In this document: piece after piece, positions 30,776 to 42,064 of the stretch
How positions within the stretch are numbered: position 1 is the stretch's first letter
Layout: every line of letters starts with the position of its first letter
NCBI GenBank assembly: GCA_964498425.1
Contig: CAZCGQ010000001.1
Span: 99,063 to 163,062 of the forward strand
Reading direction: 5' to 3'
Length of the DNA: 64,000 nt
DNA from: an uncultured Gammaproteobacteria bacterium
GTDB taxonomy: Bacteria > Patescibacteriota > Microgenomatia > UBA12405 > JAHJSD01
Program-made: the position numbers and the translations under genes
The notes under the pieces: generated by a model
Databases searched by the model: none
What the model was told of the DNA's origin: nothing
The model's input: only the letters and a program-made list of their open reading frames with translations

Positions 30776-32368
30776 CTAATCCCTTTCAAAATTCCAAAAC
30801 CAATCCCATTCTGGCTCCTCAATTTCTTCAATATCCGACTCTTCCAACCTATATTCCCCATCATAATCTCCAACTTTCTGTGTTCCCTCAAAATATTTAT
30901 GAATTAACTTTTCATCAATTAAGTCCGCCGAATAAAACTTAACAAAGACCGTATTTTCTTCATCCTCTACTTCCTCAGATTTAACAAATACAACATACAA
31001 AGTATTTTCATAACCTTCCTTCCACCGCTCAAATGTCCAGTCAGTATATTCCCGGGAAAGCAAATCATACGCCTTTTTTAATTCTCCAGTTGTTTGATAA
31101 TTATAAAAAGCCCGAACACATTCAAGTGGACTTTCGTTCGGCTTAAATTCAATTTTCTCAACGTCAGCAACTGGGTCATCAGCCTTCCGCATTTCATCCC
31201 ACTTTTGATTAATTAGATCATTAGCAGATATCCCAAAACTCAATCCTTCTCGATACAACTGATTTACCCCATAAACTTTGCCGCAAATATCAATCATCGG
31301 ACCACCGCTCATTCCATGGCCTAGTTGGATATCCGTTTGTATCATCTTAGTTGGAAATCCCTCTGGTTGTCTAAGATCAATAAAATGTCCTTTATTAAAA
31401 GTTGCTTCACCGGGTACCGAAGTCCCCAAGGGATAACCAACAGCAATTAACTCATCTAAATTTTCTAGATTGTTAACATCACCAAATTCTAAACTTGGTA
31501 TATTCTCTAGGCCAGAGTCTACCTGAATAAGTGCCAAATCTGATTCCTTATCCGCAGCAATAACCTTCCCTTGCAAAGGGGTGTAGTCCGGCAAAACAAT
31601 CTTCGGTCTCATGTCTCTGGCAATAACATGATGATTCGTCACTACATAGGGATCAGCTATGAGAAATCTGTTTTTCTTAACAAGAAAACCTGAGCCTTCA
31701 ACATTCCTGCCAATAATTCTAACTACACTTTTTTTAACCTCTTCAACTGTTTCCTTTTCATCACAAAGAAGCCTGCTTTCCCCAATTGCCGTCTCAAGTC
31801 TAACCACCCTTTCCGTCAACTGCCAATTTCTCCAACCCAAAAAGCCAATTACTGCCACCAACAGCAACACCCCTAACTTTCGAAAATTCAAATTTATTTT
31901 TTTTCTTTGTCTCTTAGCTCCCAAATATACAAAGTCCTTTTCATCTTTCTTGCGCTCGATTCCTTCAAAAAACTTCCGAACCGGTTTAAATATCCTCAAA
32001 ATCCAAACCAAAAACTGAAATACAAAAAAAAACAAAAAATAATCACCGACTAAACCAATCCAAGTATTCCCTACATCAGCGCTCATCGCAAACCAAAGCA
32101 GAAAACCAAGTTGCCCAATAAAAAATATCAGCCGTGCAAAACGAGCCCTTTCCCCAATGTTTTTATAAATCAATTGGTAAAGAAAAAGAAAAGAAGGAAC
32201 AAAAAACAAAATACTTAAATATCCCAACCACTCAATCTCCAAAAACTCACTCGACACATACATTCCCACCCCAATCAAAAAAGCCCCAACAACAAAAACC
32301 TTATTACTAAAAATAACTTTGGACTTGGATATTAATCTATTACTTTCTCTCACTCCACTCTTCGGCAA
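30776..32368 (-). CDS. Membrane-anchored trypsin-like serine protease (S1/DegP-like)
   Basis: N-terminal multi-TM region; catalytic triad contexts TNHHVI (His), DLALIQVD (Asp), [11 protein letters not shown] (GxSGGP Ser). Confidence 0.75.
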
Positions 32369-35300
32369 ACAATTCAGCTTGATCTAACACAGTCTTGGTC
32401 GCCTTTTCTTGCTTGTCCGGTGGGTAATTATATTTTTTAAGCAATTTCTTAACATATATTCGCAATTTAGCCTGAACGTCTTTTCTCTTAGTCCAATCAA
32501 TGGTTGCATTTTTTTGGATTAAACCTAACAATTCTTTTGCCATCTCGCGTAATACCTCATTCCCTAACTCTCTTACAGCACTCTCGTTTTCTGCCAAAGC
32601 ATCATAGAAAGCAACCTCTTCTTCACTTAACCCTAATTCCTTACCCTTTTCCTGCTCTTTTTGGATTTCTTTTGCTAAAGATACTAATTCTGCAATTACT
32701 TCAGCTGAGGAAATTGTTCGATCCTGATATTTCTTAATTGTGTTTTCAAGCATTTCTAAAAATGTTTTTGAAGCGACAATATTTTTTCTTGACATTTCCT
32801 TTATACTGTCATTCAATAATTTTTTCAAAATCTCAAAAGCGAGATTTTTATGCTCCATATCTTGAACTTCCCTCAAAAACTCTTCACTTAAAATCCCGAT
32901 CTCTGGTTTTTCAATCCCAACTTCCTCATATATGTTAAGAACTTCATCTGAAACGATTGCATTGGAAAGTATTTGTTTTATGGCCGCATCGTAATCAGCT
33001 TCTGTTGGCCCTCCCTCTCCGTCATCCGGTTCTAATTTAATTATTCCGGCCTTTACCGCTTGAAAAAAGGCAACCTCCTCCCTTATTTTTAGTGCTTCTT
33101 CATGGGGTACAGCTATAGAAAATGCTTGACTCAATGCTGAGACCGCTTTTTTGTACCTTTCGGCACCATCTTCTAAGCTTAAGATAAAATCAATTGCCTC
33201 TGTTATAATTTCCGTCCGTCTACCCTCATCAACTTCAAAATATTCCATATATTCAAACCTGTGAAAAAGACTCTTTACAACTTCATATTTTTCCTTCAAT
33301 ACCTGAACCGCTTCGTTCTGCGGTACACCAGTAAGCTTCCGGTCTTCTTTAGTGTAATAGGATAATGCTTTTTGTAATTCACTAGCAATTCCAAGATAAT
33401 CAACAATCAGTCCTGCTTGTTTATCCTTGTAAACTCGATTAACCCGAGCAATTGCCTGCATTAAAGAATGTCCATTCATTGGCTTATCAACATACATCGT
33501 ATGCAAAGAAGGAACATCAAACCCCGTTAACCACATGTCACAAACTATTGCTAATTTTAATTCATCATCAGGGTTCTTCATCCGCTCAGCCAGTCTATCT
33601 CGCCCCCTTTTGTTTCTAATATGAGGCTGATATTCTTGAGGATCACTTGCCGACCCAGACATAACTACCTTTATTTTTCCTTCATCTAACTTATCACTAT
33701 GCCAGTCGGGTCGTAATTTTGTGATTTGAGTATAAACATCTACAGCAATTCTTCTACTCATCGTTACAATTAGCCCTTTGCCCTCGATAACGTTCAAACG
33801 TTCTTCAAAATGACTAACAATATCCTTGGCTACTAAACACAGCCGTTTCTCAGAGCCAACCATTTTTTCCAAACGAGCCCATCTAGCCTTTATTCTTTCC
33901 TTTCTTGTTGATTCTTCACCTGCAGTAATGTCTTCAAACTCCCGATTTATCCTCTTGCTTTCTTTTGCATCTAATCCTATTCGGGCAAGCCGGGCCTCGT
34001 AATAAATAGGAACGGTTGCTTCGTCCTGGACCGCCCGCGAAATATCATAAGTATCGATTACATCTCCAAAAACAGCAACTGTATTCTTATCTTTTAAAGC
34101 AATCGGCGTCGCTGTAAAACCAATAAAAGATGCATTAGGCAAAGCATCACGAATATATTTTGCATAACCATATTTAACTGTTCCATTTTCTAACTTAGCC
34201 TGAAATCCATACTGACTTCGGTGAGCTTCATCAGCAATGACAACAATGTTTCTTCTCTCTGAAATAGTTGGAAATTTAGTCTTATCATCTTCTGGTAAAA
34301 ATTTTTGTACGGTTGTAAAAATAACACCACCTGAAGCAACATCTAATTTCTCTTTTAAATCTTCCCTGCTTTGGACTTGCTTTGGACTCTGACGAAGCAA
34401 ATTCTTTGACTTAACAAATGTGTTAAAAAGTTGATCATCCAAATCATTTCGGTCAGTAATTACAACCACAGTTGGATTATTTAATTCCTTAATCAACTTG
34501 CCAGCAAAAAAAGTCATCGTTAAACTCTTACCACTTCCTTGGGTGTGCCAAATTACTCCAATTCGCTGATCACCCTTTTCATCTGTAGCCTCTCTTGCTT
34601 TTTCCAAAGCTTTATTTGTTGCGAAATATTGATGATAACCAGATACTATTTTCTTGATATTACCTCTGTCATCATGAAACGTAACAAAATTAGTAACTAA
34701 ATCCAGTAATCTGTCTTGGTCAAAAATTCCTTTAACTAAAACTTTGGTTTCATTATGCGATCTCGGGGCAATTACCTTACCGTCAATACTTCGCCATTTT
34801 AAAAACCATTCCCAAGGTGAAGTAATAGTTCCACATCTTGCCTGAACTCCATCGCTAATAACTAACAACTCATTGTAAGCAAACAAAGAGGGTACTTCTC
34901 TTTTATAAGTTCTAAACTGCCGAAATGCATGTTTAATGGTTGCTCTTTCTTTAGCTGGATTTTTTAATTCAAAAACTGCTAAAGGTAAACCGTTAACAAA
35001 AACAACCACGTCAGGGACACGATTATTTTGACCTTCAATAATCCGAAACTGGTTAACTGCCAACCAATCGTTATTTGCAGAATCCTGCCTATCAATTAGC
35101 CAAACTTTATCACCCTGTATTCTTCCATCCTCAACCTTATATTCAACGTCGACACCGTTAATCAGCATATCATGAAAAATTTCGTTGTTAGTTTCTAACT
35201 TTGGACTACGGTTAGGAACATTTAAAACTTTCCGCAATGCTTCTATTCTAGCCGACTCAGGAACTTCTGGATTTAACCTGTTAATTGCTCTTTCTAACCG

Positions 35301-35468
35301 CTTTTCCAAAACCACATCGTCATAAGTCATACGCTCAAACGGATCAAACCTACCATTTGTTTCCGTCACCGGCTCCGGACTAATATCCGGCCCAAACATT
35401 GTTTGGTACCCTAATTTCTCGAGCCAACCTAAAACTGCTTTTTCCAGTGATGATTCTTTATATTTCAT
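32340..35468 (-). CDS. hsdR: Type I restriction enzyme R subunit
   Basis: HsdR_N hallmark [19 protein letters not shown]; helicase motif [12 protein letters not shown]; motif [12 protein letters not shown]; 1042 aa. Confidence 0.93.
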
Positions 35469-36228
35469 TAAGATTTTTTAAGAAGTTTATAAAAGTCCTG
35501 AAACGTAATACTTTTTCGCTGTCCAAAACATCATTAATTACATCTTTATTCATTTTTTCCCCAAATTTTTCGGCAAAGTGAGTCTCCCTATAATTTTTAC
35601 CTAAAAGCCTAGAATGTATTTTTTCTAATTGATTTTTGGGCTTAATAAAATACTTTTCAGGATCTATTTTTGACAAATCACATTCAAGTACGCTATTTAT
35701 CGCTTCTTCCTCCATCCCTAATTTAAGAAGTATTTTAGGCATAGACAAATACCATGCTTCTAGCTCCATCACAGAGTAATAAATTGAAACTTTATTACCA
35801 TCGATGGTTTTGCAAACTCGCTTTGCTTCTTTTTCAAAATCTTCTATAACATTATTATCTATCTCATCGCCAGCTAGATCACAATAATCTTCACTATATA
35901 TATCTCTTAAACCACATATGTAGTCTTTCTGGCCCCTAACCAAATCATCATTTGTAGTAGATAAAAACTTATTACCATACTTCTTTATCCAACTCAAAAC
36001 CTTTTTATCACCTCCAACATTATGCAAAACGATGTTCAACTCAACTTCATCTAAATTACTACCATTTTTTGAGGGAAAATCACGATAGGCCTTTCTGTAG
36101 GGATTATCCGAGAAAAACTCAATGCATTTTATTTTAACTTTCTGTGAATCATAATTATAAAGAACTAAAATTAACTTATAAACAAATATAAGTTCCGACA
36201 TACCTTCAACAACTATATATACTTTCAT
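35458..36228 (-). CDS. Toprim-like (DUF4276/DUF4435-like, OLD-family type) protein, partner of the upstream ABC ATPase
   Basis: N-terminal [15 protein letters not shown] (hhhVEGxxE, Toprim beta1 Glu) and acidic cluster [12 protein letters not shown]. 256 aa. 23 nt downstream of the ATPase gene and overlapping the hsdR start. Confidence 0.5.
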
Positions 36229-36251
36229 TTACTTTTTAAAAAATAAAAACT

Positions 36252-37370
36252 TCATTTAAGTTGCGAAAGCAGATCTGACGAAAAAACGTCAAAATTCGAT
36301 AAGCCTGTTTTCTTAAAATTATCAAAGACTTTTTTATTAGTTTTATAATTATAAGCTTTAACCTCATAGTTTTTTCTACTTAAAATATTCCAATACTTGA
36401 CATTAACTGCATTCATTAGAACCTCGTCATTCGTTGTTGCAATAAGTTGAACATTATTCTTCTTAGTTCTTTGAACGATTAGATGGGAGAGCTTTCTCGC
36501 TCTTTCATAATCTAAACCCTCACAAAGATCATCAATGATTAAGGTCGAAAAATTATTTGTACTTATCACTTGATGTAAAATAACTAAAATAGAAAAAGCT
36601 CTATACATGCCATCGGAAATTGACATTTGCTCTATTGGTTTAGGAATTCCTTCTTCTTTAAAAATTAGATATTTACCAGACTTAATAACATTATTAATTA
36701 TTAAGTCAATTTTTTTTGTTGTTACATCTTTTAAGTCATAACCTACACTATTAAAATCGTCTATAATCATTCTTTGCTTGGATTTAGATAACCCAGAAAA
36801 AATAAGTGGAACTATATTTAAACCCCTGAGTTCCGCTAATTCATCCCGCTCATCAGTACTTATATCAGTAGGTCTATTAAACCCAAAATATATTCCTCTC
36901 ACAGATTCAGCCCAGTTTACAAGAGACTCTAGAAAAGGAAACTCTTTTGTATCTCGCCTGACATGTAATACTAATTTGTTTTTAGGAGGATTCAACTTCA
37001 CTTGATCAGGTTTATTTTTTAGCTTGGAAGCCATTTGTGCCTTAGTATCAGACCGCAAAAGTTTCTTTTCATTATTTAAAACTAATTTTTCCTCAATTAC
37101 TTCGTGATCTTTTACCCTTAAGCAATATTTAAGCTTGTCGTTTGTATCTTCATCATGAAATAAAGCCTGCCAATGACCATTTAATACCCCTCTTTTTTCA
37201 GTAATAACATATGCCAAATTCCACACAACACGAACAGTTCTGGTCTTCCCAGTCGCATTTTTACCAACGATTAGATTTATATTTGAGAGATTAAGATTAT
37301 CTAATGCCCAAGGATTTTTTGAATCGTTAGTATGCTCTTTATATTTTATTGAGGTTAATTTAAATGCCAT
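36252..37370 (-). CDS. ABC-type AAA ATPase (AAA_21/AAA_15-like)
   Basis: Walker A LIVGKNATGKT; signature-like MSISDGMYRAFSIL; Walker B STLIIDDLCEGLD; H-loop region LIATTNDEV. 372 aa. Confidence 0.7.
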   Translation of the reverse strand: MAFKLTSIKYKEHTNDSKNPWALDNLNLSNINLIVGKNATGKTRTVRVVWNLAYVITEKRGVLNGHWQALFHDEDTNDKLKYCLRVKDHEVIEEKLVLNNEKKLLRSDTKAQMASKLKNKPDQVKLNPPKNKLVLHVRRDTKEFPFLESLVNWAESVRGIYFGFNRPTDISTDERDELAELRGLNIVPLIFSGLSKSKQRMIIDDFNSVGYDLKDVTTKKIDLIINNVIKSGKYLIFKEEGIPKPIEQMSISDGMYRAFSILVILHQVISTNNFSTLIIDDLCEGLDYERARKLSHLIVQRTKKNNVQLIATTNDEVLMNAVNVKYWNILSRKNYEVKAYNYKTNKKVFDNFKKTGLSNFDVFSSDLLSQLK

Positions 37371-37400: not shown

Positions 37401-38651
37401 TTAACTTTTAATTCTTATCCTCCCACTCATTAATCTCGGCAAAAGTAAATCGCGGATTTTATTCAAGTTTCGGGTTTCTTTAACATTTTTAGTTATATTA
37501 ATACGTAGTTGGTTAACAGTCTCTGTAAAATGTCTAACTATATTAGGCGATGGTATTAGCAAATCAAAGCTTCTTATTTCTGTGGCATTTATACTTTTCC
37601 TTGTTGTTCCAGTGCTAGCTCCAGATACAAAAGTTTGAAATATAGGTGAATTTAAATAGTAAAAAAGAAAATAAGCCGTTGTTATGCTTGGCTCTTTCAT
37701 TTTAAGTCTAATTAAGTAGGATGCAAAAACAGCATCCTCACTGTCATTATCAATGATAGCAACTTTTCCTGGATCAGCCATCCTTGCAATGACAATATCA
37801 CCTTTCTTGAGCTTGTATTTTTCCAAGCCAGCGTTATCTATTTCACAAAACGGTACAGCATCCCATAGTATCCAATCGCTTTTATTTATATCCGTTACCC
37901 TTAAAAAGTGCGGGCCCACCTCTTGTTCACAAGCGGATTGGGTGTAACCGTACTGTGTATTTGCCACATCACCTATTTCTTTTACTTTCCAGTTTTCCGG
38001 AATTTCACCAAGCTCTGTATCTTTCAAGATACCTCCACCCGATTTAAAAGGTTCACCTTCCAAATCAAATTCATTTTTTTCAAAATTCCAAGGGAATTCA
38101 AAATCAATAAACCAATGTTTAAATATTGCTTTTCCAATTTCCTCTAAGGTTTTATTTGTCTTTTTATTTAATTTGATTTTGTCATCAAGGGAGGAAAGAA
38201 TAGAAATGATTTGTTTAATTTCTGCGTCTCGTGGAATTAATAAACTAATTTTTTTGACATCTGATTGCCTTATAAGTGGTTGTGTACTTCCTGCATTTAA
38301 AGAGGTAAAATCAAATAATTGTAAGCAATAATAAAGATATTTCAACCTGTCCGTATCGCTACACTTAAAATATAAAACGTTATCAGAGGGCCAACATTTT
38401 TCCTCTTTAAAGTAAATCTCACCAAGTGTTCCGACTCTTCCAATCAATACAGATGGACCACTTATTAAATAGTCATCCAATTTCCCTAGGACTCCATTAG
38501 CTCCTAATACTGGAAATTGACCCTCTTTTTTTCTCTTCGAAGCAGGTAAATATTTTCCAGAAGCAATATTGAACACTTCACCTAATTCCTTGAATTCCCA
38601 GCCTTTTGGGACTTCATCCGTTTGTAATTGATTCCTTTTTCTTTTATTCAT
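37401..38651 (-). CDS. hsdS: Type I restriction-modification specificity subunit
   Basis: Two target-recognition-domain halves with conserved spacer; N-terminus KGWEFKELGEVFNIASGKYLP... is typical of HsdS. Confidence 0.85.
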   Translation of the reverse strand: MNKRKRNQLQTDEVPKGWEFKELGEVFNIASGKYLPASKRKKEGQFPVLGANGVLGKLDDYLISGPSVLIGRVGTLGEIYFKEEKCWPSDNVLYFKCSDTDRLKYLYYCLQLFDFTSLNAGSTQPLIRQSDVKKISLLIPRDAEIKQIISILSSLDDKIKLNKKTNKTLEEIGKAIFKHWFIDFEFPWNFEKNEFDLEGEPFKSGGGILKDTELGEIPENWKVKEIGDVANTQYGYTQSACEQEVGPHFLRVTDINKSDWILWDAVPFCEIDNAGLEKYKLKKGDIVIARMADPGKVAIIDNDSEDAVFASYLIRLKMKEPSITTAYFLFYYLNSPIFQTFVSGASTGTTRKSINATEIRSFDLLIPSPNIVRHFTETVNQLRINITKNVKETRNLNKIRDLLLPRLMSGRIRIKS

Positions 38652-38980
38652 TTACTTAAAATATTAAATACTTGTAATAAGAAACTAATAGTAATTAAAA
38701 GCATTCCCAAGTTCCCTAACTGTTTGTACTTTAATGCTTTCTTTTTTTCTTCTTCATCAATTTGTTCTAGTATGAGATGCTGATGTCCCTCTGTATCTAA
38801 TTTGGGAGAAAGTCCAAAAAAGAATAACAACAAGGAGCCAATAAAACCTAAAATTGCACTCCAAAAATCAAGGTTTTTCATTAATTCTAATACCAAATTA
38901 AAATTAATAAATACTTTCAAAGCTTCTTTATTATTTTTAAGAACCATTACTTTCATTTGTCTACTTTCCCGTAAATCCAT
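38648..38980 (-). CDS. Small two-TM membrane protein inside the R-M operon
   Basis: 110 aa; TM1 FWSAILGFIGSLLLFFFGL, TM2 LGMLLITISFLLQVFNIL. Its stop overlaps the hsdS start. Confidence 0.5.
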   Translation of the reverse strand: MDLRESRQMKVMVLKNNKEALKVFINFNLVLELMKNLDFWSAILGFIGSLLLFFFGLSPKLDTEGHQHLILEQIDEEEKKKALKYKQLGNLGMLLITISFLLQVFNILSK

Positions 38981-39672
38981 CTATACAAAGACATCAATAA
39001 CGGCCAAAAAACAAAAACAATTAAAAACCACACAATCAACCAAGGAATTTTTAATACTTCTACGTATGAAGATATGTCTACTAAAACAATTGGCTTATGC
39101 AAAATGCTAACTTGACCCAATTGCATAATTCCAAGAAAAGCTAATAACCATAGGGTGTCTATTGGCCAAGAATACCGATAGCTATTCCAAAAAGCTAAAA
39201 CAGGTTTTTTATTGTGTATCTCATGAAGCACTTCACCAATTAACAGGCCTTCTTCTGTTGGCCTGTAATCCCATTTTTTGTTATCTCCAAAGGCACTACT
39301 TTTAAAAGCATGTGTTTCCCTGTCTAAAAGTTCTAGCCCTTTTATTACTTTTTCCTTCGCCTCTTCGCCTTTTTTTTCATCGACTCTTTCTACTACCTCT
39401 ATATAACCACGCCAAAAAAGGTTAGATATTATGTGATTAAGTTCGTTTTCATCTTTTTTAGACTTAAATTGTGTAGTTTCTTCTATCCATTTTTTAAAAT
39501 TCTTTCTACTGACAAAATTAGATAAATGTTGATGTCCTTTACCATAAGCTGTTTGTAAAAAAGCAGCTTCATACTTCCACAGATGTTTGTATTTAGAAAT
39601 ACCTTGTTCATCTCTTATTTGCTGGTAAATGTTTAGCTTCTTTAGAAATCTTGATGGAAAATTCAAATTCAT
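38953..39672 (-). CDS. Hypothetical protein with soluble N-domain and two C-terminal TM helices, inside the R-M operon
   Basis: 239 aa; C-terminal hydrophobic helices PIDTLWLLAFLGIMQLGQVSIL and IPWLIVWFLIVFVFWPLLMSLY. Confidence 0.5.
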   Translation of the reverse strand: MNLNFPSRFLKKLNIYQQIRDEQGISKYKHLWKYEAAFLQTAYGKGHQHLSNFVSRKNFKKWIEETTQFKSKKDENELNHIISNLFWRGYIEVVERVDEKKGEEAKEKVIKGLELLDRETHAFKSSAFGDNKKWDYRPTEEGLLIGEVLHEIHNKKPVLAFWNSYRYSWPIDTLWLLAFLGIMQLGQVSILHKPIVLVDISSYVEVLKIPWLIVWFLIVFVFWPLLMSLYRWIYGKVDK

Positions 39673-39702
39673 ATTTTAAACCTCTTTATTTTAATTGTGT
39701 TT

Positions 39703-40137
39703 TCATTGGATATTTTTTTCGTATTCTTGGTTTGCTAAAATATCTACTCTTTTTGCTAAATCTGCCGTTCTGGGATGATGAAAATATTCAACTTTTTTAT
39801 ATCTTAATTCAAACGATTTTGCCTTGTCATAAAGAGGTTTAATGTGGTCTTTTCTCATTCTATATTCACCAGTCATCCATTTAATTACTAATTCACTATC
39901 CATCCATACTTCAACTTCACGTCTCGTGTGTTCTGTTGCCTTATCTAAGGCATAGATTAATCCACTGAATTCAGCCTGGGGAACAGTCATTTCACCCAAA
40001 AATTTAGAATATTCATGTTCATTTCCTGCCTCATCAATAAAAAGTACCCCACACGCAGATTTCCCTCTACCGCGCCTGCCTTTAATATGAGCATTTGGAA
40101 TTTTACAACAAGAATCAACTATAATTTTGAATGTCAT
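39703..40137 (-). CDS. RNase HI-like (RNase H type 1 fold) protein
   Basis: Four catalytic carboxylate contexts in order: IVDSC (Asp), QAEFSG (Glu), WMDSELV (Asp), TADLAKRVD (Asp). 144 aa. The start overlaps the hsdM stop (ATGA). Confidence 0.65.
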   Translation of the reverse strand: MTFKIIVDSCCKIPNAHIKGRRGRGKSACGVLFIDEAGNEHEYSKFLGEMTVPQAEFSGLIYALDKATEHTRREVEVWMDSELVIKWMTGEYRMRKDHIKPLYDKAKSFELRYKKVEYFHHPRTADLAKRVDILANQEYEKNIQ

Positions 40138-41690
40138 ATCTCAAATCCTACTTTTTTCAAATTTTCTTTTATCTTTTTTTCTAATTTTTTTGATTCTTGA
40201 AATTGTTCAGAGAGTTCGGAGGTGAGGCGGGTCATTTTTTCTTCAAACTCTTCATCGTCAATAATGTCAATTTCAATTCCAACATAACGACCGGGGGTAA
40301 GAACGCAATTGTTCTTTTCTACTTCTTCCAGCGTCGCGGATTTGCAAAAGCCTTTTGTATCTTCGTAATCGCCACCTTTTTCTTTCCACTCGTGATAAGT
40401 ATTGGCAATTTTGTCAATTTCTTCCTCGGTTAATTCGCGGTGGCGGCTATCAATCATTTCCCCCATATCCCGAGCATCAACAAATAGAATTTCATTTCGC
40501 CTCTCTCTGTCATCATTACTCTGTTTATGCCTTGATAAAAACCATAAAGTACAAGGAATGGCTACGTTATAGAAGAGTTTATCCGGCATAGCAACAATAC
40601 AATCTACCAAATGGTCTTCGATTATTGCCTTCCTAATTTCCCCTTCATTTGAAGTTTGTGACGCAAGGGATCCATTTGCCATTACAAATCCAGTGATTCC
40701 TTTTGGGCTTAAATGATGAATGAAATGCTGAATCCAAGCATAATTAGCATTACCGGTAGGCGGCGTTCCATATTTCCACCGGACATCATTTTTAAGTTTT
40801 TCCCCTCCCCAATCACTGATATTAAAAGGCGGATTAGCTAAAATATAATCAGCCTTCAAATCAGGATGCAAGTCATTATGAAAGCTGTCACCGGGTTCCC
40901 CACCTAAATCACCTTCAATGCCGCGAATTGCCAAATTCATTTTGCATAACTTCCATGTGGTTGGGTTAGATTCCTGGCCGTAAATTGAAATATCCTGTAT
41001 TTTTCCGCCATGCTCTTCAACAAACTTTTTGCTTTGAACAAACATTCCACCACTCCCACAACAAGGATCATAAACCCGCCCCTGATATGGCTCAATCATT
41101 TCTACTAGTAAGCGAACAATGCAAGTGGGCGTAAAAAATTCACCGCCCCCCTTACCTTCCTGGCTAGCAAATTTGCCGATGAAATATTCATAGACACGAC
41201 CAAAAACATCTTGTGATTCTTCCTTGTTACCCTCCATGTTAATACCGCTAATTAAATCCACTAACTCTCCCAGTACTGTTTTATCCAATTCCTCTCGACT
41301 GTAGCGCTTAGGAAGTACACCTTTTAATGTTTGATTCTCTTTTTCAATTGCGATCATTGCATCATCGATAATTTTGCCAATCTGCGGATCCTTGGCATTT
41401 TCCCTGATATATTGCCATCTGGCCTCTTTTGGCACCCAAAATACATTATGCATACTAAAAGCATCTTTATCTTCCACAAAGCCTTTTCCCAATTCCGGGT
41501 CTTTTTTAATCTCTTTCATCCGGTTTTCAAAAGAATCTGAAATGTATTTCAGGAACAATAGTCCCAAAAAAACATGTTTGTATTGGGATGGATCCATATT
41601 ATTCCGCATTTTGTCGGCAGCCTTCCAAATCTCTTTCTCAAAACCCAATTTAGCTGAAGAATTATTTCTCGACATATTTAATTTTACCAT
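40134..41690 (-). CDS. hsdM: Type I restriction-modification DNA methyltransferase subunit
   Basis: HsdM N-terminal EKEIWKAADKMRNNMDPSQYKHVFLGLLFLKYISD; SAM motif DPCCGSGGMF; catalytic LANPPFN (NPPF). An alternative ATG lies at 41675. Confidence 0.93.
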   Translation of the reverse strand: MVKLNMSRNNSSAKLGFEKEIWKAADKMRNNMDPSQYKHVFLGLLFLKYISDSFENRMKEIKKDPELGKGFVEDKDAFSMHNVFWVPKEARWQYIRENAKDPQIGKIIDDAMIAIEKENQTLKGVLPKRYSREELDKTVLGELVDLISGINMEGNKEESQDVFGRVYEYFIGKFASQEGKGGGEFFTPTCIVRLLVEMIEPYQGRVYDPCCGSGGMFVQSKKFVEEHGGKIQDISIYGQESNPTTWKLCKMNLAIRGIEGDLGGEPGDSFHNDLHPDLKADYILANPPFNISDWGGEKLKNDVRWKYGTPPTGNANYAWIQHFIHHLSPKGITGFVMANGSLASQTSNEGEIRKAIIEDHLVDCIVAMPDKLFYNVAIPCTLWFLSRHKQSNDDRERRNEILFVDARDMGEMIDSRHRELTEEEIDKIANTYHEWKEKGGDYEDTKGFCKSATLEEVEKNNCVLTPGRYVGIEIDIIDDEEFEEKMTRLTSELSEQFQESKKLEKKIKENLKKVGFEI

Positions 41691-42025: not shown

Positions 42026-42030
42026 TAATT

Positions 42031-42056
42031 AGTACCATGGTTCGAACCATGGTACT
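42031..42056. repeat. 26-bp perfect palindromic element AGTACCATGGTTCGAACCATGGTACT (family copy 1)
   Basis: Perfect inverted repeat, preceded by gaatagtaatt, followed by an A7 run. Intergenic. Confidence 0.85.
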
Positions 42057-42064
42057 AAAAAAAT

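What the first reader, a model, noticed from the sequence alone, without database searches (positions are those of the whole stretch)
38648..40137. RNase HI-like protein plus two small membrane proteins translationally coupled to hsdM and hsdS: candidate undescribed nuclease-sensor / membrane-effector module
A 144-aa RNase H type-1 fold protein (all four catalytic carboxylates recognisable) starts within the hsdM stop codon. It is followed by a 239-aa protein with a soluble N-domain and two C-terminal TM helices, then a 110-aa two-TM protein whose stop overlaps the hsdS start. Small TM proteins paired with a nucleic-acid-recognising enzyme resemble the effector logic of abortive-infection systems (membrane disruption on sensing). 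I do not recognise this three-gene combination as a described system. The alternative is a housekeeping rnhA plus unrelated membrane proteins that happen to lie here.
Basis: inference. Interest (0 to 1): 0.8.

Follow-up and report, generated by a model that had tools for sequence, protein, structure and literature searches.

The report
Accessory cassettes inside a restriction operon
Three real genes (an intact RNase H and two small membrane proteins) sit inside a Type I restriction-modification operon, but they are three independently shuffled add-on genes, each found on its own inside restriction operons of other bacteria, not one conserved three-gene defence system.

Summary
On the minus strand the order is hsdM, a 144-aa RNase H (ATGA overlap), a 239-aa protein (p239), a small two-TM protein, then hsdS (ATGA overlap). 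The small protein is more likely 102 aa (p102) than 110 aa.

- The trio recurs nowhere: none of about 14 other p239 loci has the RNase H, and none of 6 other RNase H loci has p239 or p102.
- The RNase H does not look housekeeping. It has an intact DEDD site and a Sto/LC11-type fold. In 4 of 6 other loci it lies in or beside an RM operon (three Type I, one Type II). It is better conserved (62-68%) than the hsdM/hsdR genes around it (31-50%).
- p239 is a membrane-anchored winged-helix protein from a tiny, unannotated family seen mostly in CPR/Patescibacteria. It lies beside Type I, Type III or Eco57I-type RM genes in 8 of 14 other loci.
- The closest relatives of this operon carry different inserts in the same hsdM-hsdS gap.

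Best reading: a variable cassette slot holding RM-linked second-layer genes, with a logic like PrrC or Ronin. Mechanisms are inferred, not shown. Moderately interesting; a new variant of a known kind.

The parts
40134..41690 (-). hsdM, Type I methyltransferase (518 aa). First gene of the operon; its stop overlaps the RNase H start.
   Evidence: Pfam N6_Mtase 6e-111 and HsdM_N. PADLOC MTase_I 4e-222. NPPF motif present in the translation.
39703..40137 (-). RNH: 144-aa type-1 RNase H (RVT_3, Sto/LC11/Halobacterium type). DEDD residues are D8, E56, D80 and D132. A 12-residue basic loop (residues 12-26) lies between beta1 and beta2.
   Evidence: Sequence and fold matches. Homologues 47-71% identical among themselves lie in or beside RM operons in L037, L040/41, L054 and L053. 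No PADLOC hit.
39673..39702 (-). 30-nt spacer with an AAGAGG ribosome-binding site before the p239 start
   Evidence: Read from the sequence.
38953..39672 (-). p239: 239-aa protein. Conserved N-terminal helical region (residues 1-50), then a winged helix with a variable insertion in the wing (about 96-133), then a C-terminal TM hairpin (about 168-190 and 208-232).
38648..38956 (-). p102: 102-aa protein with two TM helices (alternative upstream ATG at 38980 would give 110 aa). Its start overlaps the p239 stop and its stop overlaps the hsdS start.
   Evidence: Homologue 84% identical in the same slot directly before hsdS in L001. Weak relative (E 4e-5) before p239 and hsdS in L024/L030.
37401..38651 (-). 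hsdS, Type I specificity subunit (416 aa)
   Evidence: Pfam Methylase_S 1e-42, two stretches. PADLOC Specificity_I 5e-92.
36252..37370 (-). AAA_21 ATPase (372 aa). Part of a second embedded module between hsdS and hsdR.
   Evidence: Pfam AAA_21 3e-12. PADLOC AbiLi 3e-19, AriA 5e-17, HEC-01A 7e-11.
35458..36228 (-). DUF4276-like partner (256 aa) of the ATPase
   Evidence: Pfam DUF4276 scores 27 bits, below the 30.2 cut-off. Weak PADLOC HEC-01B hits.
32340..35468 (-). hsdR, Type I restriction subunit (1042 aa). The operon is complete.
   Evidence: Pfam HSDR_N, SWI2_SNF2 and T1RH-like_C. PADLOC REase_I, 1168 bits.

Best explanation
The stretch is the variable hsdM-hsdS 'slot' of an intact Type I restriction-modification operon, in a genome that looks like CPR/Patescibacteria. 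It holds three separately assorting accessory genes, not one system.

(1) RNH is a catalytically intact Sto/LC11-type RNase H1. It belongs to a well-conserved subfamily that travels between divergent RM operons.

(2) p239 is a membrane-anchored winged-helix protein. Its family is small, unannotated and seen mostly in CPR, and it usually sits directly after an RM gene, most often just before hsdS.

(3) p102 is a two-TM miniprotein found in the same slot elsewhere.

Shown:
- the gene order and overlaps;
- the folds and active-site conservation;
- the recurrent RM linkage of each gene on its own;
- the absence of the trio elsewhere;
- the lower G+C of the inserts.

Inferred:
- All three add a second layer to restriction.
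- RNH would cut the RNA strand of RNA:DNA hybrids on invading replicons. These could be R-loops or primers that start replication, or hybrids that hinder site reading or translocation.
- p239 and p102 would be membrane-acting guard or effector proteins held silent by the RM complex. They would be released when restriction is inhibited or overwhelmed, as RonA is in Ronin and PrrC is in EcoprrI.
- The winged helix of p239 would be the sensing part, binding DNA, a DNA mimic or the methyltransferase.

The overall confidence of 0.6 applies to 'independent RM-linked accessory cassettes'. My confidence in the specific mechanisms is about 0.25.
For: Trio not conserved:
- phmmer and profile searches of all ORFs in 54 fetched loci find no RNH next to any p239, and no p239 or p102 next to any RNH.

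RNH contexts:
- L037: hsdM-RNH-hsdS-DUF4145-hsdR.
- L040/41: hsdM-KilA-N-RNH-hsdS-..-DUF3800-hsdR.
- L054: hsdM-hsdS-RNH-hsdR, with overlapping or abutting ends.
- L053: HinfI-C5 MTase-Vsr-RNH.
- L038: HTH-RNH-serine recombinase, with Shedu 2 kb away.

RNH conservation against its carriers:
- RNH is 62-68% identical between operons whose hsdM are 39-50% and hsdR 31-41% identical.
- The closest backbones (L001, L002, L017; hsdM 68-70%, hsdR 60-61%) lack RNH and hold other inserts.

p239 contexts:
- Directly before hsdS in L002, L012/35, L017 and L024.
- After a Type III res gene in L006.
- After an Eco57I-type MTase plus a T5orf172-ResIII protein in L013/26.
- After an N6_Mtase/Eco57I protein in L027.
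- After an EcoRI-MTase fragment in L014.
- After a Schlafen-like helicase in L011/32.
- After an AAA_15/21 ATPase in L018-20.
- Sources. Gaps are mostly 24 nt or less.

Other support:
- Insert G+C is 0.26-0.34, against 0.387 for hsdM and 0.393 for the window.
- RNase H fold and DEDD site.
- Winged helix plus TM hairpin.
- Published precedents for RM-embedded second-line effectors: a small TM protein caged by HsdMS, PrrC, and HEPN RNases in RM operons plus RNase-H-fold defence modules proposed to hit RNA:DNA intermediates.
Against: - The sample is small: 6 other RNH loci and about 14 other p239 loci. It is not a census.
- 2 of 6 RNH loci and 4 of 14 p239 loci show no RM gene beside them (L038, L039; L009, L010, L015, L036).
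- No experiment exists for any of the three families. None matches a PADLOC model.
- I found no paper linking an RNase HI to RM operons.
- Whether the genome has another RNase H could not be checked, so a housekeeping contribution of RNH is not excluded.
- p239 is linked to RM systems of three different types. That fits a generic sensor or tether better than specific caging by HsdMS.
- hsdR is present here, unlike in Ronin.
Confidence: 0.6

Rival explanations
1. RNH, p239 and p102 form one three-gene abortive-infection system. The RNase H senses a nucleic-acid cue and the two membrane proteins kill the cell.
For: The genes are tightly packed and co-oriented with overlapping stops and starts. 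All three are RM-linked elsewhere. Membrane effectors beside nucleic-acid enzymes are a common abortive-infection design (established knowledge; for Ronin).
Against: The combination occurs only in this window. There are 0 of about 14 p239 loci with RNH and 0 of 6 RNH loci with p239 or p102. RNH occurs alone between hsdM and hsdS (L037) or between hsdS and hsdR (L054). p239 occurs alone between hsdM and hsdS (L035). Each therefore works without the others.
Confidence: 0.07
2. Housekeeping rnhA plus unrelated membrane proteins that merely happen to lie in the operon.
For: Sources name the homologues 'ribonuclease HI family protein'. The catalytic site is intact. A second RNase H in the genome could not be looked for. 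CPR genomes are compact, and overlapping genes are common in them.
Against: 4 of 6 independent homologues lie in or next to RM operons of divergent families and in different positions. Scores are far below the NCBIfam equivalog cut-offs for curated RNases HI, for example 54 against 140 bits. The closest RM backbones lack it. Its G+C is below that of its surroundings. p239 is RM-linked in 8 of 14 other loci.
Confidence: 0.06
3. p239 (with or without p102) is not a killer. It would be a membrane tether or regulator for restriction. The winged helix would hold DNA or the RM complex at the inner membrane, where foreign DNA enters, or would control operon expression. RNH would simply help the RM enzyme on R-loop-containing DNA.
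For: The N-terminal domain has a winged-helix fold like MarR, PadR, TubR and MukF-N DNA binders. It is linked to three different RM types, which argues for a generic role. The N-terminal 50 residues are far better conserved than the RM subunits. Membrane association of Type I enzymes has been reported for EcoKI (my own recollection, not checked here).
Against: No periplasmic sensor domain is present. Known RM controller proteins are small soluble Xre-type HTH proteins. p239 neighbours are often HEPN-like or other small TM proteins typical of abortive-infection modules. The TM hairpin carries conserved motifs (WN..Y, WP, R231), which is more than a plain anchor needs.
Confidence: 0.2
4. The inserts are selfish hitch-hikers or decaying cargo with no role in defence. 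The hsdM-hsdS gap would merely tolerate insertions.
For: The content of the slot varies among close relatives. The inserts have low G+C.
Against: The ORFs are intact, with strong conservation: RNH 62-68% and p239 up to 64% identical across lineages. Catalytic residues are conserved. The junctions are translationally compact. The same families recur in the same kind of place in unrelated operons.
Confidence: 0.07

Closest known systems
Ronin (RonA + HsdM/HsdS 'decoy immunity'; Silas et al., bioRxiv 10.1101/2023.04.06.535777)
   Same: A very small membrane protein is encoded tightly next to hsdM/hsdS. The published model is that it is kept harmless by HsdMS and released by anti-restriction proteins, killing through the membrane. 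p102 and p239 occupy an equivalent position.
   Different: RonA is 61 aa with one TM helix, and Ronin lacks hsdR. Here hsdR is present, p102 has two TM helices, and p239 adds a 165-residue winged-helix domain. Homology to RonA was not tested. p239 also accompanies Type III and Eco57I-type systems.
PrrC in the EcoprrI Type IC locus, and RloC
   Same: An accessory gene is embedded inside a Type I operon and acts as a back-up when restriction is inhibited.
   Different: PrrC is an ABC-ATPase plus HEPN anticodon nuclease. None of the three genes has those domains.
LC11-RNase H1 (3u3g, 4h8k), Halobacterium RNase H1 (4e19), Sulfolobus tokodaii RNase HI (2ehg, 3aly), Rv2228c N-domain (3hst)
   Same: Same fold (TM 0.78-0.83), same Pfam family (RVT_3) and same DEDD site.
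   Different: Only 24-30% identical. The window subfamily has a 12-residue basic loop between beta1 and beta2 and conserved Cys10, Cys11 and Cys29. It is found in RM operons. Scores are below the NCBIfam equivalog cut-offs.
HEPN/Abi genes embedded in R-M operons, and RNase-H-fold defence modules (RNase LS N-domain, NamA); Anantharaman et al. 2013, PMC3710099
   Same: The general phenomenon of RNases inserted in RM operons. [quoted passage not shown]
   Different: Those RNase H folds are caulimovirus-like or NamA versions fused to or paired with HEPN. This one is a stand-alone canonical RNase H1.
HEC-01 / AbiL-type ATPase + DUF4276 pairs (PADLOC)
   Same: A two-gene candidate defence module embedded in another defence operon. 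One such pair lies between hsdS and hsdR of this same operon.
   Different: It concerns the neighbouring genes (35458-37370), not the three genes of the finding.

Membership tests
Type-1 RNase H (Pfam RVT_3, archaeal/Sto-LC11 type) | Pfam model above the gathering score | tested here: met
   49.6 bits against a cut-off of 21.6.
Type-1 RNase H (Pfam RVT_3, archaeal/Sto-LC11 type) | RNase H fold | tested here: met
   AF2 pLDDT 95.5. Foldseek E 1e-12 and TM 0.83 to 4e19 and 3u3g.
Type-1 RNase H (Pfam RVT_3, archaeal/Sto-LC11 type) | Four catalytic carboxylates (DEDD) | tested here: met
   D8, E56 and D80 are invariant and D132 is at least 90% conserved in 22 homologues. D132 aligns with the Asp of 'RAD' in 3u3g.
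Type-1 RNase H (Pfam RVT_3, archaeal/Sto-LC11 type) | Cleaves the RNA strand of RNA:DNA hybrids | not testable with these tools
   Needs an enzyme assay.
Housekeeping rnhA orthologue | Conserved position among housekeeping genes, independent of mobile or defence genes | tested here: not met
   5 of 7 loci, counting the window, are in or beside RM operons. One more is beside an HTH gene, a recombinase and Shedu.
Housekeeping rnhA orthologue | Reaches a curated equivalog score for RNase HI | tested here: not met
   NCBIfam scores were 66 against 326, 54 against 140, 53.9 against 300 and 28 against 231 bits.
Housekeeping rnhA orthologue | Only RNase H of the genome | not testable with these tools
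   Only 64 kb of a 278,676-bp contig is available. No paralogue lies in the window.
Conserved three-gene system (RNH + p239 + p102) | The three genes co-occur in other genomes | tested here: not met
   0 of about 14 p239 loci and 0 of 6 RNH loci.
Ronin-type HsdMS-caged membrane effector | Small TM protein gene tightly linked to hsdM/hsdS | tested here: met
   ATGA overlaps. TM helices. p239 lies 1-5 nt before hsdS in four other loci.
Ronin-type HsdMS-caged membrane effector | hsdR absent from the locus (decoy) | tested here: not met
   A full-length hsdR lies at 32340-35468.
Ronin-type HsdMS-caged membrane effector | Sequence homology to RonA | not tested
   No RonA sequence was at hand. RonA is 61 aa with one TM helix, against 102 aa with two TM helices here.
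Ronin-type HsdMS-caged membrane effector | Toxic alone, silenced by HsdMS, triggered by anti-restriction proteins | not testable with these tools
   Needs expression experiments.
Winged-helix DNA-binding proteins (MarR/PadR/TubR-like), for the p239 N-domain | Winged-helix fold | tested here: met
Winged-helix DNA-binding proteins (MarR/PadR/TubR-like), for the p239 N-domain | Match to a sequence family of such regulators | tested here: not met
   No Pfam family for any of 69 family members. No NCBIfam or PDB sequence hit.
Known or candidate defence protein families (PADLOC-DB 2.0) | Match to any model | tested here: not met
   0 families for RNH, p239 and p102.

The most novel reading that the evidence does not exclude
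A canonical, catalytically intact RNase H1 is a genuine working partner of restriction enzymes. One possibility is that it strips RNA from RNA:DNA hybrids that would otherwise shield or prime invading DNA. That would make hybrid formation a target, or an evasion route, in restriction. Separately, p239 would found a new class of membrane-anchored winged-helix sensor-effectors that guard RM systems of several types in CPR bacteria, which mostly lack CRISPR.
Probability: 0.2. Interest if true: 0.8.

Novelty: new variant of a known kind. Interest (0 to 1): 0.55.

Why it matters
RM-embedded accessory genes such as PrrC, Ronin and HEPN RNases show how bacteria back up restriction when phages disarm it.

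Two protein families appear here that are absent from PADLOC-DB and from the literature I could search. Each recurs in that niche:
- a stand-alone RNase H1;
- a membrane-anchored winged-helix protein seen mostly in CPR/Patescibacteria.

CPR/Patescibacteria is a huge, poorly studied group that relies mainly on RM for defence.

If functional, these families would extend the list of second-layer defences. They would also give a testable link between RNA:DNA hybrids and restriction.

The result also corrects the tempting reading of tightly coupled neighbours as one 'system'. The hsdM-hsdS gap behaves as a cassette slot.

Tried and rejected
- PADLOC, NCBIfam and PHROGs scans gave nothing for p239 or p102. 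For RNH they gave only generic RNase H hits.
- A Pfam scan of 69 p239-family members gave no family.
- A profile search of 1.84 billion representatives with the p239 alignment found only 90 short proteins (107-318 aa). By length there was no sign of a fused enzymatic domain, and the Pfam scan of 69 of them found none.
- Viral contig scans found no p239 relative. RNases H there were at most 38% identical.
- A BFVD fold search gave no significant match.
- A tblastn of RNH against plasmids gave no match.
- PDB sequence searches for p239 and p102 gave nothing.
- The AFDB fold library was not available.
- Rfam and tRNA scans of the window gave nothing.
- The promoter and terminator scan found no more sites than shuffled sequence.
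- PADLOC and lenient Pfam scans of the unknown neighbours of p239 gave only a weak HEPN hit for the 219-aa protein of L001/L002.
- Literature searches for an RNase H to RM link found none.
- Rejected: the trio as one system, because of the neighbourhood data.
- Rejected: a controller (C) protein role for p239, because it is membrane-anchored, has a winged helix rather than an Xre-type HTH, and sits before hsdS rather than before the R gene.
Full report
**1. What is there**

On the minus strand the window carries one compact operon. The gene order is:

| Gene | Coordinates | Notes |
|---|---|---|
| hsdM | 41690-40134 | |
| RNH | 40137-39703 | 144-aa RNase H-like gene |
| p239 | 39672-38953 | 239-aa gene |
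| p102 | 38956-38648 | small gene; 38980-38648 if the upstream ATG is used |
| hsdS | 38651-37401 | |
| AAA_21 ATPase | 37370-36252 | |
| DUF4276-like gene | 36228-35458 | |
| hsdR | 35468-32340 | |

The junctions, read from the sequence:
- hsdM/RNH share ATGA.
- RNH and p239 are separated by 30 nt that contain AAGAGG 9 nt before the ATG.
- p239/p102 share ATGA if p102 starts at 38956.
- p102/hsdS share ATGA.

No terminator-like site lies between hsdM and hsdS, and promoter-like sites are no more frequent than in shuffles.

The small protein is better taken as 102 aa:
- the 38956 start has an SD-like GGGAAAG and an ATGA overlap;
- the public record of the same contig calls it 102 aa (P0151);
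- the nearest homologue is only 84 aa.

**2. The RNase H**

- It matches Pfam RVT_3 above threshold.
- Its closest solved relatives by sequence are 3u3g and 4h8k, with E about 1e-12.
- Its AF2 model (pLDDT 95.5) superposes on Halobacterium RNase H1, LC11-RNase H1, the Rv2228c N-domain and Sulfolobus RNase HI, with TM 0.78-0.83.
- In 22 homologues D8, E56 and D80 are invariant and D132 nearly so. The enzyme is predicted to be active.
- The subfamily has an extra basic loop between beta1 and beta2 (residues 12-26) and conserved cysteines, which 3u3g, its closest solved relative, does not show in the alignment.

**3. Is the RNase H housekeeping?**

I looked at six other members on long contigs.

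| Locus | Identity to window RNH | Context |
|---|---|---|
| L037 | 65% | hsdM-RNH-hsdS-DUF4145-hsdR |
| L040/L041 | 65% | hsdM-KilA-N-RNH-hsdS-...-DUF3800-hsdR |
| L054 | 53% | hsdM-hsdS-RNH-hsdR, with overlapping or abutting ends |
| L053 | 65% | HinfI endonuclease-C5 methylase-Vsr-RNH |
| L038 | 66% | HTH gene-RNH-serine recombinase, Shedu 2 kb away |
| L039 (Zixibacteria) | 62-63% | RNH-small TM protein-DUF5615-a faint PycTM-like protein |

So 4 of 6 independent relatives lie in or next to RM operons, three of them inside Type I operons. If about 1% of genes are RM-adjacent (my estimate), that outcome is very unlikely by chance.

The operons are not one lineage:
- hsdM identities between RNH-bearing operons are 37-50% and hsdR identities 31-41%.
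- The RNH proteins are 62-68% identical to one another; the L054 protein is more distant (47-53%).
- The closest relatives of the window's own RM backbone lack RNH altogether (L001, L002, L017; hsdM 68-70%, hsdR 60-61%).

RNH presence therefore does not follow the backbone. It behaves as a mobile cassette. Its NCBIfam scores are far below the equivalog cut-offs for curated RNases HI. Whether the genome has another RNase H cannot be told from 64 kb; there is no paralogue in the window.

**4. p239**

No Pfam, NCBIfam, PHROGs, PADLOC or PDB sequence match was found.

The family is small:
- 41 clusters in 5.8 billion proteins by the word-indexed search. The few that carry a source name are CPR/Patescibacteria MAGs: Microgenomates, Moraniibacteriota, Andersenbacteria and Berkelbacteria. 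Three loci from the genome scan sit in MAGs binned as Gammaproteobacteria, Bdellovibrionales and Pseudomonadales.
- 90 representatives at E <= 1e-3 among 1.84 billion in the exhaustive profile search. All are short (107-318 aa), and by length none shows a fused enzymatic domain.
- None of 69 members hits a Pfam family.

The alignment shows an almost invariant N-terminal 50 residues, a variable middle part, a conserved 'EGLLVGEVLSEI' segment and a C-terminal hydrophobic hairpin with WN..Y, WP and Arg motifs.

In short, p239 is a membrane-anchored winged-helix protein with no periplasmic domain.

**5. p239 contexts**

- Directly before hsdS in four other Type I operons:
  - L002-5: hsdM-PIG-L-219 aa-136 aa-p239-hsdS-AAA_15-HNH-...-hsdR
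  - L012/35: hsdM-p239-hsdS-KAP NTPase-hsdR
  - L017
  - L024
- Directly after the res gene of a Type III system (L006-8, L021).
- After an Eco57I-type methylase plus a T5orf172-ResIII protein (L013/L026).
- After an N6_Mtase/Eco57I protein (L027).
- After an EcoRI-methylase fragment (L014).
- After a Schlafen-like helicase in a MazG/SocA island (L011/L032-34).
- After an AAA_15/21 ATPase (L016, L018-20).
- Four loci show no recognisable defence neighbour (L009, L010, L015, L036).

None has an RNase H. p239 identity roughly tracks the backbone in its own RM lineage: 59-60% against hsdR 60-61% for L002 and L017. It may therefore be an older resident of this operon type, with RNH a later arrival.

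**6. p102**

It has two TM helices. Only one close relative was found by the word-indexed search. That relative lies in exactly the same place in L001: hsdM-219 aa-160 aa (3 TM)-84 aa-hsdS-AAA_15/OLD.

A weak relative (E 4e-5, mostly the second TM helix) precedes p239 and hsdS in L024/L030. p239 and p102-like genes are thus neighbours in two distinct places, in opposite order. This is a loose association at best.

**7. The slot**

Three close RM backbones carry three different insert sets between hsdM and hsdS:
- [RNH, p239, p102] in the window;
- [PIG-L, 219 aa, 136 aa TM, p239] in L002;
- [219 aa, 160 aa TM, p102-like] in L001.

The 219-aa protein has an RDSADH (Rx4H) motif and a weak HEPN hit.

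The inserts in the window have lower G+C (0.26-0.34) than hsdM (0.387) and the window as a whole (0.393). A second slot between hsdS and hsdR holds an AbiL/HEC-01-like ATPase plus a DUF4276-like pair.

The picture is a Type I operon used as a scaffold for exchangeable accessory genes.

**8. How it most likely works**

Shown:
- anatomy;
- folds;
- active-site conservation;
- independent RM linkage of each gene;
- no conserved trio.

Inferred from published precedents:
- PrrC is latent in EcoprrI and is set off when T4 Stp inhibits restriction.
- RonA, a 61-aa TM protein, is toxic alone, silenced by HsdMS and triggered by Ocr, ArdA and Aop1.
- HEPN RNases are embedded in RM operons, and RNase-H-fold defence modules have been proposed to hit RNA:DNA replication or transcription intermediates.

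By analogy, p239 and p102 are the best candidates for membrane-acting back-up effectors or guards. RNH would be an enzyme acting on RNA:DNA hybrids of invaders: R-loop primers, or hybrids that hamper site recognition or translocation.

A non-lethal role for p239 is a serious alternative, because it accompanies three RM types. It could tether DNA or RM complexes at the membrane where DNA enters.

**9. Comparison with the known, and novelty**

RM-embedded accessory genes are a known kind. These particular families are not in PADLOC-DB. I found no paper linking an RNase HI, or a membrane-anchored winged-helix protein, to RM operons.

Its alternative, housekeeping rnhA plus bystanders, is not supported either.

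**10. Verdict**

- Observation: confirmed.
- Interpretation: partly supported.
- Novelty: new variant of a known kind.
- Interest: 0.55.

The sample is small, because look-ups were capped. A full neighbourhood census and simple expression tests would settle it.

Noticed in passing
window 35458-37370 (-): A second embedded module lies between hsdS and hsdR. It consists of an AAA_21 ATPase (PADLOC AbiLi 3e-19, AriA 5e-17, HEC-01A) and a DUF4276-like protein (27 bits, below the Pfam cut-off; weak HEC-01B hits). The stop of the second gene overlaps the hsdR start by 11 nt.
   Followed up: partly
window 30776-32368 (-): A 530-aa ORF has several N-terminal hydrophobic segments and a Trypsin_2 domain (4e-24). 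Its TTG start overlaps the hsdR stop by 29 nt, so it may be a further member of the operon.
   Followed up: partly
window 42029-42058: A perfect 13-bp-stem palindrome (TTAGTACCATGGT TCGA ACCATGGTACTAA) followed by a T-rich tail lies just upstream of the hsdM operon. It is probably the terminator of the preceding gene.
   Followed up: no
window 1-64000: There is no tRNA gene and no Rfam family hit in 64 kb. GC skew is negative in 63 of 64 one-kb bins, and within the part I listed (about 19-48 kb) most of the long ORFs lie on the minus strand.
   Followed up: no
L001 4870-5529 and L002 6906-7565: A 219-aa protein sits in the hsdM-hsdS slot of the two closest RM relatives. It carries an RDSADH (Rx4H) motif and a weak HEPN hit (E 0.03), so it is probably an RM-embedded HEPN RNase. 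It is followed by small TM proteins (136 aa; 160 aa with 3 TM helices). Rx4H motifs are also visible in the p239 neighbours L032 8668-9297 (RRNALLH) and L009 2107-3177 (RNTAGH).
   Followed up: partly
L037 2765-4090 and L038 6450-7556: Large serine recombinases (Resolvase + Recombinase + Zn_ribbon_recom) lie directly beside two RNase H loci. L038 also carries a Shedu (SduA) gene 2 kb away. This is a possible route of mobility for these islands.
   Followed up: no
L035, L037, L040, L002, L001 (hsdS-hsdR gaps): Other Type I operons of the CPR type hold a KAP NTPase, DUF4145, DUF3800, AAA_15+HNH or AAA_15/OLD-TOPRIM between hsdS and hsdR, and KilA-N or PIG-L between hsdM and hsdS. Both gaps look like general cassette slots.
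   Followed up: partly
window 39703-40137 (RNH residues 10-29): The RM-linked RNase H subfamily has conserved Cys10, Cys11 and Cys29 and a 12-residue basic loop (KIPNAHIKGRRGRGK) between beta1 and beta2. This loop is absent from the closest solved relative (3u3g) in the alignment. It may substitute for the basic protrusion or serve as a partner-binding surface.
   Followed up: no
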